This document shows positions 3,195 through 9,380 of a stretch of DNA of 9,380 nucleotides, piece by piece. Location of the stretch: the IMG/VR virus record IMGVR_UViG_2663762849_000001; one strand, written 5' to 3'. Made by a program: the position numbers and the translations under genes. Position 1 is the stretch's first letter. Every line of letters starts with the position of its first letter. This DNA is from a virus. Its lineage: Monodnaviria; Loebvirae; Hofneiviricota; Faserviricetes; Tubulavirales. The notes beneath the pieces are model-generated. The model had not been told where the DNA came from and did no database searches. It saw only the letters and a list, made by a program, of their open reading frames with translations.

Positions 3195-3206
3195 ATCATA
3201 CCAGGA

Positions 3207-4571
3207 GTGTTTTGTTTGATTCACTTTATTATTCCGCTTCTGTTTTTGTTCTTTTCCTCGTTTTCTTTCGCTGAAGAGAAAGAAAATCCGGATGCACTTG
3301 TTCAGTGTGCAGGCCATTCATCCTGCAGGACAGATTATTCGGACGCGGGGACGTCGATTAAATTAGCCAGGGCGGCCGGTCATCTTTTCTGTGGTTCGGG
3401 CAGTTATGACGCATGTTCCGGAATAATTCATTATTGTGGTGTGCCACTTTCAACGCCTGTTAATGCACCTTCGACTGTCGGGTCTTTTGTCCGTGCCCGG
3501 TGGTCAGCATATAAAGTCTGGGATTCAGACAAGCAAAAGTGGACAGCCTGCACCCTTGCTTTTCAGGGTGGTGAGGGGGATTTGACACCTGAATATAATA
3601 AGCCGCCAACTGACGAGATTTGTCTTTCTCGTCCGGTTCTTGATGGTATGACTTTTTCTGATGTTTATAAAGGTGATGACGGGACCCGTTATGTTAATGT
3701 GCAGGGGTGTATTTATGAGGCAACCGGTAATCCTCTTATTTGTAATCCCGATGATGATACAGTTTGTACTGCCGACTGGAAACCAGTTGCTGTAGATCCT
3801 GCATTCTCCGATGGTAAGGAGGATGGCGGTAGCTCAGGTGGTGGCAGTTCCGGTGGTGGTAACCCAGGCGGCGGCAGTTCCGGTGGTGGTTCAGGTTCTG
3901 GCTCCGGTGGTTCATCCGGTAGCGGTGGCTCCGGCTCGGGTTCCGGCGGCTCATCCGGCAGTGGTGGTTCAGGTTCTGGCTCCGGTGGTTCATCCGGTAG
4001 CGGTGGCTCCGGCTCGGGCTCCGGCGGTTCATCCGGTAGCGGTAGTTCAGGTTCAGGATCCGGTGGCTCATCCGGCGATGACAATGGCTGGCTTGATGGT
4101 ATTTTGGGCTGGTTAAAAACAATATGGGTGTCAGTGAATGATTTAAATAATGCTTTTTCTGTTTCTCAGGCTGATATGAATAATGCATTAAATTCACTGG
4201 ACAATGGTATTAAAGATATTAGTCAGAATATAGCTTCTTCTTTGCCTGATGGGGATTTCCCTTTAGGGGAGCTTTCGCATTACTTGCCAGGACAGGGAAG
4301 TGAGAGTCATGATAATAACAATTGGCTTACAGTTAATATTGACAAACTGGTAAATACAAATAATGGAACTGCTCTTCCTTTTATTTTACAATTTAGCTTT
4401 GATCTTCCGTTGATTGGCGCTATTAATTTCAAGATTGATACAAGCCATTTTGCAAAAGCTTATGACGATTATGTTCGTTCTGTTCTTGAATATGCTATTT
4501 ATATGATAACCATGTTACGCGTTTTTGTTATTTCTCGCCGTACATTATTTGAACGTGAGGTAAAACTCTGA
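3207..4571 (+). CDS. Adsorption / minor coat protein (pIII-like), ~454 aa: signal peptide, Cys-rich N-terminal domains, Gly/Ser-rich linker, C-terminal anchor
   Basis: N-terminal signal peptide ending SFSFA-EEKE; many Cys in the first 200 aa; long GGSSGGG/SGSGSGG linker; size and position after the coat gene. Start uncertain: GTG 3207 overlaps the AGGAG RBS (3203-3207); TTG 3214 has better spacing. Confidence 0.8.
   Translation: MFCLIHFIIPLLFLFFSSFSFAEEKENPDALVQCAGHSSCRTDYSDAGTSIKLARAAGHLFCGSGSYDACSGIIHYCGVPLSTPVNAPSTVGSFVRARWSAYKVWDSDKQKWTACTLAFQGGEGDLTPEYNKPPTDEICLSRPVLDGMTFSDVYKGDDGTRYVNVQGCIYEATGNPLICNPDDDTVCTADWKPVAVDPAFSDGKEDGGSSGGGSSGGGNPGGGSSGGGSGSGSGGSSGSGGSGSGSGGSSGSGGSGSGSGGSSGSGGSGSGSGGSSGSGSSGSGSGGSSGDDNGWLDGILGWLKTIWVSVNDLNNAFSVSQADMNNALNSLDNGIKDISQNIASSLPDGDFPLGELSHYLPGQGSESHDNNNWLTVNIDKLVNTNNGTALPFILQFSFDLPLIGAINFKIDTSHFAKAYDDYVRSVLEYAIYMITMLRVFVISRRTLFEREVKL
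3826..4076 (+). repeat. Intragenic Gly/Ser-coding tandem repeat in the pIII-like gene (13-aa units SGSGSGGSSGSGG; DNA period ~78 bp, about two and a half copies)
   Basis: Near-identical 78-nt blocks (ggttcaggttctggctccggtggttcatccggtagcggtggctccggctcgggYtccggcggYtcatccggYagYggt) are visible directly in the sequence. Confidence 0.8.
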
Positions 4572-4930
4572 TGTGGGCCATTTTAGGTGCTTTTTTTGTT
4601 GATGTTGTTTTAAAATCACTACGTTTCATTGCAGGAGTTATCGGTGATAAAGCTGTTGCATGGGCTAAGCTCCTTTCTTATCTTGGTCTTTGCTACACTT
4701 CATATTATGCTCTTGTATCTGCCGTCAATTTTATTATTCGTCAAATCTCCGATGTTAATAAACTCGATGTTATTGTAGTTGCATTCAGTTACCTTCCTTT
4801 AAATATTCAGTACTGTTTTAATATCATCCTCCATGTTCAATTTATTTCATACATATATCTTTATAAGGATAGAGTGTATCGATTGGTTTATGATTTATTT
4901 AAATCAAATGGGCTTAATGTTGGCAAGTAA
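4571..4930 (+). CDS. Minor coat protein (pVI-like), 119 aa, hydrophobic
   Basis: ATG 4571 overlaps the pIII-like stop (TGATG, coupling); strongly hydrophobic, AT-rich; size and position match gene VI of Ff phages. Confidence 0.65.
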   Translation: MWAILGAFFVDVVLKSLRFIAGVIGDKAVAWAKLLSYLGLCYTSYYALVSAVNFIIRQISDVNKLDVIVVAFSYLPLNIQYCFNIILHVQFISYIYLYKDRVYRLVYDLFKSNGLNVGK

Positions 4931-4944
4931 TTTTGCGGGGGTAA

Positions 4945-6150
<1,206 letters not shown>

Positions 6151-6160
6151 GACAGAGGAC

Positions 6161-7915
<1,755 letters not shown>

Positions 7916-7944: not shown

Positions 7945-9162
<1,218 letters not shown>

Positions 9163-9215: not shown

Positions 9216-9243
9216 AGTGCGCATAATGTATATTATGTTAAAT
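9216..9243 (+). other. dif-like XerC/XerD recombination site (phage att site or prophage-chromosome junction)
   Basis: AGTGCGCATAA-TGTATA-TTATGTTAAAT matches E. coli dif GGTGCGCATAATGTATATTATGTTAAAT (recalled from memory) at 27 of 28 positions. Confidence 0.8.
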
Positions 9244-9380
9244 TGCCTGTGAAGGTCCTTTACTTCACCATTCACATCCACACACAGATAAATCAATACG
9301 TTGTGATTTCTGACTTCCCTCCCGTTTCGGTAGAAAAATTCAACCTCTGTTCAGTGATGGCACACCATAGACCATGAGTT

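What the first reader, a model, noticed from the sequence alone, without database searches (positions are those of the whole stretch)
3826..4076. Slippage-prone 78-bp DNA repeats encode the pIII-like Gly/Ser linker
The flexible linker of the adsorption protein is encoded by near-perfect tandem DNA repeats. Such repeats can expand or contract in-frame (39 and 78 are multiples of 3), changing linker length and possibly receptor or pilus reach without destroying the protein. They also generate the spurious Pro/Glu-rich and Val/Ala-rich ORFs on the other frames and strand (3713-4084, 3736-4197, 3811-4116).
Basis: seen in the sequence. Interest (0 to 1): 0.4.

Follow-up and report, generated by a model that had tools for sequence, protein, structure and literature searches.

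The report
Variable Gly/Ser linker repeats in phage pIII
The flexible Gly/Ser tether of a filamentous prophage's attachment protein is encoded by 39/78-bp tandem DNA repeats that gain and lose whole units in frame among near-identical phages and also serve as a crossover point for domain swapping, which is real but already described for related phages.

Summary
Window 3825-4076 encodes an 84-aa Gly/Ser tract of a gene III (pIII/g3p)-like attachment protein of a dif-region inovirus prophage of E. coli/Citrobacter. It consists of four 15-bp units followed by 4.9 units of 39 bp arranged as a 78-bp higher-order repeat (TRF 93% match; exact 58-nt repeat). All differences between units are synonymous. 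The two 78-mers share 74/78 nt, against 55±4 expected from the peptide alone (0 of 100,000 simulations reach 74).

In the window's own allele lineage the array reads A-B-A-C-D (84 aa), A-B-A-C-C-D (97 aa), A-B-A-C×7-D (162 aa) or (A-B)×5-A-C-C… (≥194 aa), in contigs with 0-1 differences over ≥4.6 kb of flanks. Family-wide, linkers in complete replicons span 26-157 aa, while the flanking domains keep constant length.

Added findings: four repeat "dialects" occupy the same site; the window's array is an a/b hybrid; N- and C-terminal domains are reassorted across the linker.

Caveats: pure type-b arrays are 83-85 aa in all complete replicons, and the short forms occur only in draft assemblies. 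Any functional effect of length is untested.

The phenomenon is already published for IKe and UPΦ phages, so this is a new member of a known kind.

The parts
3216..4571 (+). Gene III (pIII/g3p)-like attachment protein CDS, 451 aa. The likely start is TTG at 3216, 10 nt after AGGAG; the ORF finder's GTG at 3207 sits only 1 nt after the Shine-Dalgarno sequence.
   Evidence: ORF. Start region. RefSeq homologues start at the equivalent of 3216. Pfam PF05357 E=6.7e-9. PHROG virion structural/attachment protein. PDB g3p N1 hits.
3216..3272 (+). Predicted signal peptide (MIHFIIPLLFLFFSSFSFA), followed by an N-terminal beta-rich domain of unknown specificity (to about 3600).
   Evidence: Hydrophobic leader read from the translation; this is inference, no signal-peptide predictor was run. 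AF2 beta strands at aa 29-103 with pLDDT 60-72.
3609..3800 (+). N1-type (TolA-binding-like) domain lying immediately upstream of the linker.
   Evidence: phmmer against PDB: 4eo1_A E=1.5e-12, 1tol_A E=8e-13, also 2g3p and 2x9a; query aa 135-198 in 3207 numbering. Pfam Phage_Coat_A aa 129-174. tblastn to IKe/I2-2/If1 gene III, 42-44% identity.
3825..3884 (+). Linker part 1: four 15-bp 'type-a' units (GGSSG GGSSG GGNPG GGSSG). These are the same units that build the GGGSS/GGGNS arrays of related gene III alleles.
   Evidence: Units a, b and d are exact matches, and c is a 1-nt variant, of units in L002/L005/L007/L008/L009. TRF period 15/30 at 3824-3890.
3885..4076 (+). Linker part 2: 'type-b' array of 39-bp units A-B-A-C plus the 36-bp unit D. 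A/B-type units alternate to give the 78-bp period. Each unit encodes GGSGSGSGGSSGS.
   Evidence: The same unit sequences occur in L003, L010, L011, L019, L030 and L032. Copy number varies in L013, L033, L034 and L035.
4077..4568 (+). C-terminal (virion-anchoring) domain: conserved GWLDGILGWL...VNDLN motif, helical, with a long hydrophobic C-terminal helix.
   Evidence: Invariant columns in alignments A1/A2. AF2 helices 292-338 and 419-450, at low pLDDT. 99.2% nt identity to L003 although the N part is only 72% identical.
3713..4084 (-). By-product antisense ORF (123 aa, Pro/Glu-rich). It is open only because GGN/TCN/AGY repeats lack stops in this frame.
   Evidence: The equivalent ORF was mis-annotated as WP_062865521.1 in L020, where gene III is intact.
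3736..4197 (-). By-product antisense ORF (153 aa, His/Arg/Asn-rich).
3811..4116 (+). By-product +1-frame ORF (101 aa, Val/Ala-rich).

Best explanation
Window 3825-4076 is an in-frame, hypervariable tandem-repeat tract (a coding VNTR). It encodes the disordered Gly/Ser tether that joins the receptor-binding N-terminal module (unknown domain plus N1/TolA-binding-like domain) to the virion-anchored C-terminal domain of the gene III attachment protein. The phage is an integrative filamentous phage (inovirus) of E. coli/Citrobacter.

The units (15, 39 and 78 bp) are near-identical at the DNA level. Misaligned pairing therefore adds or removes whole units without breaking the reading frame. This can happen by replication slippage during rolling-circle/ssDNA replication, or by unequal exchange between tandem or co-resident prophage copies. 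The result is linker-length alleles that arise much faster than point mutations.

The same low-complexity DNA is shared by otherwise divergent gene III alleles. It therefore also acts as a crossover site where N-terminal and C-terminal modules are reassorted. The window's own linker, a type-a prefix fused to a type-b array, is the scar of such an event.

Shown: the repeat structure; frame and synonymous-only divergence; copy-number polymorphism on near-identical backbones; mosaicism across the linker.

Inferred: the molecular mechanism (slippage versus unequal recombination), and that the tract is a flexible tether. The latter rests on analogy with Ff/IKe g3p and on the AF2 model's lack of structure.

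Unknown: whether length affects infectivity or host range. The very wide tolerated range (about 20 to >=194 aa) suggests weak constraint.
For: - Identity of the protein and phage. The closest relative carries two tandem prophage copies next to hipBA.
- Repeat anatomy, and DNA identity beyond what the peptide requires.
- Length variation is confined to the linker: 93 homologue clusters have a 203-aa pre-linker, a fixed post-linker and a 16-111 aa linker. Of 111 pairs with identical 320-aa flanks, 101 differ in linker length.
- Complete chromosomes: L002 and L009 are 100.0% identical over 609+489 nt of flanks, with linkers of 96 and 116 aa caused by two separate 30-bp tandem duplications. Two tandem prophages in one chromosome (L015) have 91 and 101 aa.
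- The window's own lineage: A-B-A-C-D (window, L001, L014, L031, L036), A-B-A-C-C-D (L035), A-B-A-C-C-C-C-C'-C-C-D (L034), and A-B x5.5 followed by C-C... (L033). L033/L034/L035 have 0 differences in 1670-3500 nt upstream and 1 in 3000 nt downstream.
- L023-L028 equal L010 at 100.00% except for one 156-bp (2 x 78) gap.
- Mosaicism: window vs L003 is 72% in N and 99% in C; L005 vs L008 is 99.5% in N and 70% in C. N-type x C-type table. Megablast homology breaks at query 677-683, which is window 3883-3889.
- Disorder: pLDDT 25-30 and no secondary structure over aa 199-290.
- Literature: gene III of UPPhi phages varies mostly in Gly-rich repeat number (PMC7307601).
Against: - Pure type-b arrays are 83-85 aa in all complete replicons examined: six distinct alleles in about 16 genomes. 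The 39/78-bp array is therefore not unconstrained or constantly changing.
- The short type-b forms (20, 33, 45 aa) occur only in draft, metagenome or Logan contigs, and they equal what a repeat collapse would give.
- The expanded forms come from IMG/VR contigs whose sequencing technology I could not check, and one of them ends inside the array.
- Both tandem copies in strain 100416 carry identical arrays.
- No rate was measured and no functional data exist for this phage.
- For IKe, the cited study is reported to have found no fitness effect of a longer Gly-rich region (as summarised in PMC7307601).
Confidence: 0.85

Rival explanations
1. The length differences are mostly assembly artefacts, meaning collapse or mis-expansion of a tandem repeat in short-read assemblies. 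The real linker would then be essentially invariant.
For: Short type-b forms are seen only in draft or Logan contigs, and they equal the minimal path through the repeat (pre-A-G, or an A/G chimera). Complete replicons with pure type-b arrays are all 83-85 aa. Exact repeats of 41-107 nt exceed small k-mer sizes.
Against: Chromosome-level assemblies alone span 26-157 aa. These include L002 vs L009 with identical flanks and two different arrays within one chromosome. Collapse cannot create the expanded arrays. The 33-aa allele recurs in 10 contigs from independent samples and three assembler settings (k141, k127, k31) with 0-1 nt differences. Internal unit order differs among equal-length arrays.
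Confidence: 0.05
2. Homologous recombination or gene conversion between co-resident or tandem prophage copies, rather than replication slippage, is the main generator of array diversity. The tract would be chiefly a recombination junction.
For: The window has a hybrid a+b array. N- and C-domain types are freely combined. Prophages sit in tandem, and several genomes hold more than one prophage with different arrays. Equal-length type-b arrays have phase-shifted unit order.
Against: Many differences are simple local tandem duplications on otherwise identical backbones: sd to sdsd, rs to rsrs, C to CC to C x7, AB to (AB)5. These are the classical products of slipped-strand mispairing and need no second parent. 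The two mechanisms are not exclusive, and sequence alone cannot separate them.
Confidence: 0.3
3. The array is an adaptive 'tuning' locus. Linker length would be selected to match host surface architecture (pilus, capsule or O-antigen depth), so unit gain and loss would change host range or infectivity.
For: [quoted passage not shown] Pure type-b arrays keep 6 units despite rearranged unit order, which hints at length selection. Ff work attributes a functional role to the distal linker (Nilsson et al. 2000, J Virol 74:4229; seen only as a reference in PMC10622537, with content from memory).
Against: Near-identical phages tolerate 84 to >=194 aa, and the family as a whole tolerates 16-157 aa. 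No association with host features was tested. The IKe study is reported to have found no selective advantage.
Confidence: 0.15
4. The repeat acts at the nucleic-acid level, for example as a structured ssDNA/RNA element, a G-rich motif or a packaging or regulatory signal. Alternatively, the alternative-frame ORFs are real overprinted genes.
For: The ssDNA fold is slightly more stable than shuffles (z = -2.24). Long ORFs are open in three other frames, and one is annotated in RefSeq.
Against: There is no Rfam match. The fold z-score is weak, and the centroid structure differs from the MFE. All 4-9 nt differences between units are synonymous in the gene III frame, and hence non-synonymous in the other frames. 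Four unrelated repeat dialects of different sequence occupy the same protein position. The annotated antisense ORF lies over an intact gene III.
Confidence: 0.03

Closest known systems
Glycine-rich repeat region of gene III in UPPhi phages (Shapiro & Putonti 2020, PMC7307601)
   Same: dif-integrating, tandemly inserted inovirus prophages of Enterobacterales. Gene III is the most variable gene (95 protein variants among 229 genomes), and most of that variation is in the number of Gly-rich repeats linking the N- and C-terminal domains of g3p.
   Different: The UPPhi unit is a GGGES pentapeptide, and the phage is closest to IKe/I2-2. The window's phage has a P2 gpA-type replication protein (PF05840). 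Its gene III matches IKe only over a 74-aa N1 domain at 44% identity. It uses 13-aa/39-bp units in a 78-bp higher-order repeat, and shows hybrid arrays and linker-centred mosaicism not described in that paper.
IKe / I2-2 g3p and the natural longer glycine-rich IKe variant (Bruno & Bradbury 1997, Gene 184:121; cited in PMC7307601)
   Same: The best isolated-domain PDB match is 4eo1. From memory, the domain order of receptor domain first, then TolA-binding domain, then Gly-rich linker, then C domain resembles IKe. The Gly-rich region is reported to change length within a few laboratory generations.
   Different: From memory, IKe has a second Gly-rich linker between its two N-terminal domains. 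Here only one long linker is present. The repeat sequences are unrelated. No laboratory passage data exist for this phage.
Ff (M13/fd/f1) g3p linkers G1 and G2
   Same: Flexible Gly/Ser-rich tethers between N1, N2 and CT. The linker is the accepted boundary for swapping receptor-binding domains in engineered phages (PMC12477597). The N1 domain is homologous (1tol, 2g3p, 1g3p, 8b3o).
   Different: Ff has two linkers built from (E)GGGS units and a fixed laboratory sequence. Here there is a single 84-aa tract with natural copy-number polymorphism and several repeat dialects.
YpfPhi / CUS-1 filamentous prophages (PMC4266046)
   Same: About 8.7 kb, integrated in tandem at dif, with modules for replication, morphogenesis and secretion in the same order. 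The window's closest relative is a tandem pair next to hipBA with a period of 8,739 bp.
   Different: Sequence relatedness to YpfPhi/CUS-1 was not tested, because no YpfPhi record turned up in the phage collection. That paper does not discuss a linker repeat.
In-frame coding VNTRs of bacterial surface proteins / contingency loci
   Same: Tandem repeats whose unit number changes by slipped-strand mispairing or unequal exchange, far faster than point mutation.
   Different: Units are multiples of 3, so there is no on/off frameshift switching. The product is a spacer rather than an antigenic or adhesive repeat.

Membership tests
Inovirus g3p/pIII-type attachment protein | N1 (TolA-binding) domain, Pfam Phage_Coat_A | tested here: met
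   PF05357 scores 35.8 bits against a cut-off of 20.8. PDB hits 4eo1, 1tol, 2g3p, 2x9a and 1fgp, E from 1e-12 to 1e-6.
Inovirus g3p/pIII-type attachment protein | Gly-rich flexible linker between the N-terminal receptor module and the C-terminal domain | tested here: met
   84-aa G/S tract at 3825-4076. AF2 pLDDT 25-30 with no secondary structure.
Inovirus g3p/pIII-type attachment protein | Signal peptide and C-terminal hydrophobic anchor helix | tested here: inconclusive
   A hydrophobic leader and a C-terminal helix at 419-450 are seen in the translation and the AF2 model. However, the C domain has low pLDDT (35-44), has no Pfam hit, and no signal-peptide or TM predictor was available.
Inovirus g3p/pIII-type attachment protein | Gene position: after the small coat genes, before the gene VI-like and gene I (Zot) genes | tested here: met
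   Order is rep (PF05840), small ORFs, gene III, 119-aa pVI-like protein (phrog_1944), Zot (PF05707), secretin (PF00263). The order is conserved in all loci fetched.
Hypervariable in-frame coding tandem repeat (VNTR) | Head-to-tail DNA repeats with a unit length that is a multiple of 3, and identity above that imposed by the peptide | tested here: met
   Units of 15, 39 and 78 bp. 74/78 nt identical against 55 +/- 4.3 expected; 0 of 100,000 simulations.
Hypervariable in-frame coding tandem repeat (VNTR) | Copy-number polymorphism among otherwise near-identical genomes | tested here: met
   L033/L034/L035 (>=194, 162 and 97 aa; 0-1 SNP in >=4.6 kb). L002 vs L009. L010 vs L023.
Hypervariable in-frame coding tandem repeat (VNTR) | Length changes observed directly during propagation (a measured rate) | not testable with these tools
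   Needs passage plus amplicon sequencing. The only precedent is in the literature, for IKe.
Phase-variable contingency locus (on/off switching by repeat frameshift) | Unit length not divisible by 3, so that unit gain or loss shifts the frame | tested here: not met
   All observed unit changes are 15, 30, 39, 78 or 6 bp, and the gene stays in frame in every locus decoded.
UPPhi / Lineavirus (IKe, I2-2) group | Close sequence relatedness of the structural genes to IKe/I2-2 (about 70% aa identity for covered genes, per PMC7307601) | tested here: not met
   No megablast hit in 50,697 phage records. Gene III matches IKe/I2-2 only over aa 125-198 at 44%. No UPPhi901 sequence was compared directly.

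The most novel reading that the evidence does not exclude
The Gly/Ser repeat DNA may be more than a tolerated spacer. It could be a selected 'recombination cassette' shared across co-resident inoviruses, letting receptor-binding modules be exchanged between phages. Its unit count would at the same time tune tether length to the host envelope, making it a combined modular-exchange and reach-tuning device. The four repeat dialects would then act as compatibility groups. The retention of exactly 6 units in rearranged type-b arrays would reflect length selection.
Probability: 0.12. Interest if true: 0.55.

Novelty: new member of a known kind. Interest (0 to 1): 0.3.

Why it matters
**Annotation and comparative genomics**
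- Gene III lengths in draft assemblies of these prophages are unreliable. The short forms may reflect repeat collapse rather than real alleles.
- The linker generates spurious ORFs. At least one of these has entered RefSeq in place of the real gene.

**Phage biology**
- The data show that the attachment protein of this E. coli inovirus family evolves in two ways.
- The first is rapid in-frame gain and loss of repeat units.
- The second is shuffling of receptor-binding and anchoring modules across the linker.
- This is the natural counterpart of the domain swaps used to retarget M13.

**Typing**
- The array is a ready-made high-resolution marker for otherwise identical prophages.

**Limits**
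- None of this changes current understanding, because the same behaviour is documented for IKe and UPPhi phages.

Tried and rejected
- Megablast of the whole window against 50,697 phage records gave no match, so no named phage could be assigned.
- The Rfam gathering scan of the window found nothing.
- The ssDNA fold of the tract gave z = -2.24 with an unstable centroid, so I judged it not a structural element.
- I first took the 20/33/45-aa type-b alleles from the search for homologous proteins as proof of contraction. I downgraded them after seeing that they come from Logan, MEGAHIT or draft contigs and equal the minimal repeat path. I partly rehabilitated the 33-aa allele because it recurs across assemblers and samples.
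- Tandem prophage copies in strain 100416 were examined for within-genome divergence, and their arrays are identical.
- The accepted model has mean pLDDT 47.5. I used it only for the ordered/disordered pattern and did not send it to fold search.
- Nilsson et al. 2000 (PMC111938) is not held, so the role of the Ff distal linker rests on memory plus the reference listing.
- Relatedness to YpfPhi/CUS-1 and UPPhi901 could not be tested by sequence.
Full report
**What the window is.** The 9,380-bp window carries an inovirus (filamentous phage) gene set.
- A P2 gpA-type replication protein lies at 124-2124 (PF05840).
- A 141-aa protein and several small ORFs follow.
- A 451/454-aa protein lies at 3207/3216-4571, and a 119-aa pVI-like protein at 4571-4930.
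- Zot/pI lies at 4948-6150 (PF05707), followed by a 339-bp x 5.2 tandem array at 6164-7915.
- A secretin/pIV lies at 7954-9162 (PF00263).

There is no megablast match to 50,697 phage records. Related prophages are present in E. coli chromosomes and on a Citrobacter youngae conjugative plasmid. The closest relative, E. coli 100416, has two complete tandem copies with a period of 8,739 bp next to hipBA. From memory, that is the dif region. The layout and tandem integration match what is described for YpfPhi/CUS-1 and UPPhi (PMC4266046; PMC7307601).

**The protein.** The product of 3216-4571 is a g3p/pIII-type attachment protein.
- Pfam Phage_Coat_A is above its cut-off.
- phmmer against the PDB hits the N1/TolA-binding domains of IKe (4eo1), fd/M13 (1tol, 2g3p, 1g3p, 8b3o) and If1 (2x9a), over aa 135-198.
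- tblastn finds only gene III of IKe, I2-2, If1 and the Erwinia PEar phages, over that same segment at 38-44% identity.
- PHROGs gives 'attachment/virion structural protein'.

The likely start is TTG at 3216, 10 nt after AGGAG, as in RefSeq homologues, rather than GTG at 3207. The architecture is leader, unknown beta-rich domain, N1-like domain, Gly/Ser tract, then a helical C-terminal domain ending in a long hydrophobic helix. An AF2 model built from 17 homologues gives pLDDT 60-83 for aa ~50-195, 25-30 with no secondary structure for aa 199-290, and low-confidence helices after that.

**Checking the observation.** TRF finds period 78 at 3883-4075 (2.5 copies, 93% matches, no indels), period 39 (4.9 copies) and period 15/30 at 3824-3890. 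The repeat finder agrees. In the gene III frame the tract is 4 x 15 bp (3825-3884), then 39-bp units A-B-A-C and a 36-bp unit D (3885-4076). All four full units encode GGSGSGSGGSSGS. They differ at 0-9 nucleotides and at no amino acid. The longest exact repeat is 58 nt.

I simulated synonymous codon choice for the same peptide with the linker's own codon usage. This gives 55.0 +/- 4.3 identical nt between the two 78-mers. The observed value is 74, and none of 100,000 simulations reached it. The DNA repeats therefore reflect recent duplication rather than merely a repetitive peptide.

**Does the linker length vary?** Among 93 homologue clusters from the protein database, the pre-linker part is 203 aa and the post-linker part is fixed per C-domain type (150/154/156/162/164 aa). 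The Gly/Ser tract ranges from 16 to 111 aa, mostly in 5-aa steps. Of 111 pairs with identical 320-aa flanks, 101 differ in linker length.

Many of those sequences come from short-read assemblies, so I repeated the test on complete replicons. Twenty linkers range from 26 to 157 aa.
- The cleanest case is L002 (Japan) against L009 (Mali). The N part (609 nt) and C part (489 nt) are 100.0% identical, yet the linkers are 96 and 116 aa. The difference comes from two separate 30-bp tandem duplications, unit strings sd to sdsd and rs to rsrs.
- Two tandem prophages in one chromosome (E100341, L015) have 91- and 101-aa linkers, with identical sequence immediately on both sides.

**The window's own repeat type.** Four repeat 'dialects' occupy the same position:
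- (a) 15-bp GGGSS/GGGNS;
- (b) 39/78-bp GGSGSGSGGSSGS;
- (c) 30-bp SGGSTSGGSS;
- (d) 27-bp GGGSSGGSS.

The window's tract is a hybrid. Its first four units are type-a units: exact, or 1 nt different from, units in L002/L005/L007/L008/L009. The rest are type-b units identical to those of L003, L010 and L011.

Pure type-b arrays in complete replicons are all 83-85 aa, across six distinct alleles in about 16 genomes. Their unit order nevertheless differs: B-A-E-F-C-G, A-I-A-B-A-G, A-B-A-B-J-G and B-A-A-B'-A-G'. Whole-unit events must therefore have occurred.

Short type-b arrays (20, 33 and 45 aa) occur only in draft, metagenome or Logan contigs. They equal the minimal path through the repeat. 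The 33-aa allele is 100.00% identical to L010 apart from one 156-bp gap. It recurs in 10 contigs from independent samples and three k-mer settings. I therefore consider it probably real, but unproven.

The decisive evidence came from scanning IMG/VR for unit A. In the same hybrid lineage as the window, the arrays read as follows:

| Source | Unit order | Linker |
|---|---|---|
| L031, L036 | A-B-A-C-D | 84 aa |
| L035 | A-B-A-C-C-D | 97 aa |
| L034 | A-B-A-C-C-C-C-C'-C-C-D | 162 aa |
| L033 | A-B-A-B-A-B-A-B-A-B-A-C-C... | >=194 aa (contig ends in the array) |

L033, L034 and L035 have 0 differences in 1,670-3,500 nt upstream of the linker. L034 and L035 have 1 difference in 3,000 nt downstream. 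Both 39-bp and 78-bp steps are represented, and all are in frame. Collapse artefacts cannot create expansions.

**The linker as a mosaic junction.** Megablast hits to gene III often cover only query 4-683 or only 677-1365. The break is therefore at window 3883-3889. Pairwise identities:

| Pair | N part | C part |
|---|---|---|
| Window vs L003 | 72% | 99% |
| L005 vs L008 | 99.5% | 70% |
| L010 vs L003 | 91% | 68% |
| L010 vs L005 | 70% | 92.5% |

N-type by C-type cross-tabulation shows most combinations. A second breakpoint lies about 100 nt into the C domain, near 4177, in the comparison of the window with L013. The a/b hybrid array of the window is a direct trace of exchange within the repeat DNA.

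**Mechanism.** The simple local duplications on identical backbones are the classical products of slipped-strand mispairing. This is plausible for a phage that replicates through ssDNA rolling-circle intermediates. The hybrids, the phase-shifted arrays and the reassorted domains require recombination between different copies, for which tandem and multiple prophages provide substrates. Sequence data cannot apportion the two mechanisms.

The tract is most likely a passive flexible tether, as in Ff/IKe g3p. The tolerated range is very wide, which argues for weak constraint. The constant 6-unit length of pure type-b arrays is unexplained.

**Rival readings.** These were assembly artefact, a nucleic-acid-level function, and overprinted genes. 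They are disfavoured by the complete-genome data, by a weak fold z-score (-2.24), by the absence of an Rfam hit, by synonymous-only divergence, and by the existence of four unrelated dialects at one protein position.

**Comparison with what is known.** Repeat-number variation of the Gly-rich region of gene III is published.
[quoted passage not shown] - Swapping receptor-binding domains at the Gly-rich linker is standard in M13 engineering (PMC12477597).

The present case is a different phage lineage with a different, higher-order (39/78-bp) repeat. It adds evidence for several dialects, hybrid arrays and linker-centred mosaicism. I therefore rate it a new member of a known kind, of modest interest (0.3). 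Its practical consequences concern annotation and typing.

Noticed in passing
window 6164-7915: A 339-bp unit is repeated 5.2 times (98% match) between zot and the secretin gene. Copy number is about 2 in L011, L012, L014 and L023, 1 in L013, and 0 in several relatives. A 2.9-copy array sits in the same zot-secretin position of a different inovirus prophage (E. coli ZH49, L038). A ~73-bp core at the start of each unit matches ColE1-type mobilizable plasmids about 290 bp from rop. From memory, that is where pBR322/ColE1 carry the PriA primosome-assembly (ssi) site, so the unit may be a complementary-strand origin..
   Followed up: partly
L020:3390-5000 (NZ_CP027550.1): Gene III is an intact single ORF with a ~157-aa linker. 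RefSeq/PGAP nevertheless annotates fragments plus the antisense Pro/Glu-rich ORF (WP_062865521.1, 187 aa) running through the repeat. This is an annotation error caused by the linker.
   Followed up: yes
L014 (NZ_CM128593.1 2416000-2437000); L015, L016, L019: Prophages of this family are integrated as tandem copies. Strain 100416 has two full copies with a period of 8,739 bp next to hipBA. In E100341 the two adjacent copies carry different linker arrays (91 vs 101 aa). In 100416, TD225-C4 and AST205 the copies are identical.
   Followed up: partly
L003, L004, L006, L010, L011, L019, L030, L032: Pure type-b linker arrays always total 6 units (83-85 aa) although their internal unit order is phase-shifted or rearranged. 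This may be length selection or coincidence, and it is unexplained.
   Followed up: partly
window ~4177: There is a second mosaic breakpoint about 100 nt into the C-terminal domain. The window and L013 are 96% identical for the first 101 nt after the linker and then diverge strongly. The window's C domain begins like type C1 (DDNGWLDGILGWLKTIW) and continues like type C0.
   Followed up: partly
window 3201-3218: The ORF finder's GTG start at 3207 is 1 nt after AGGAG. TTG at 3216 has canonical spacing and is the start used in RefSeq homologues.
   Followed up: yes
L011 (OV141394.1, Citrobacter youngae pCY-CTXM-15): The same inovirus, apparently in tandem (gene III appears at both ends of the 8.8-kb stretch), sits on a 363-kb conjugative IncFIB/IncHI1B plasmid rather than at a chromosomal dif site.
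   Followed up: no
window 9217-9380: The last 164 nt of the window are 100% identical to a stretch of E. coli plasmid NZ_CP141085.1 and 97.5% identical to CP054253.1, with no annotated feature there. This may be the flank of the insertion site or a repeated element.
   Followed up: no
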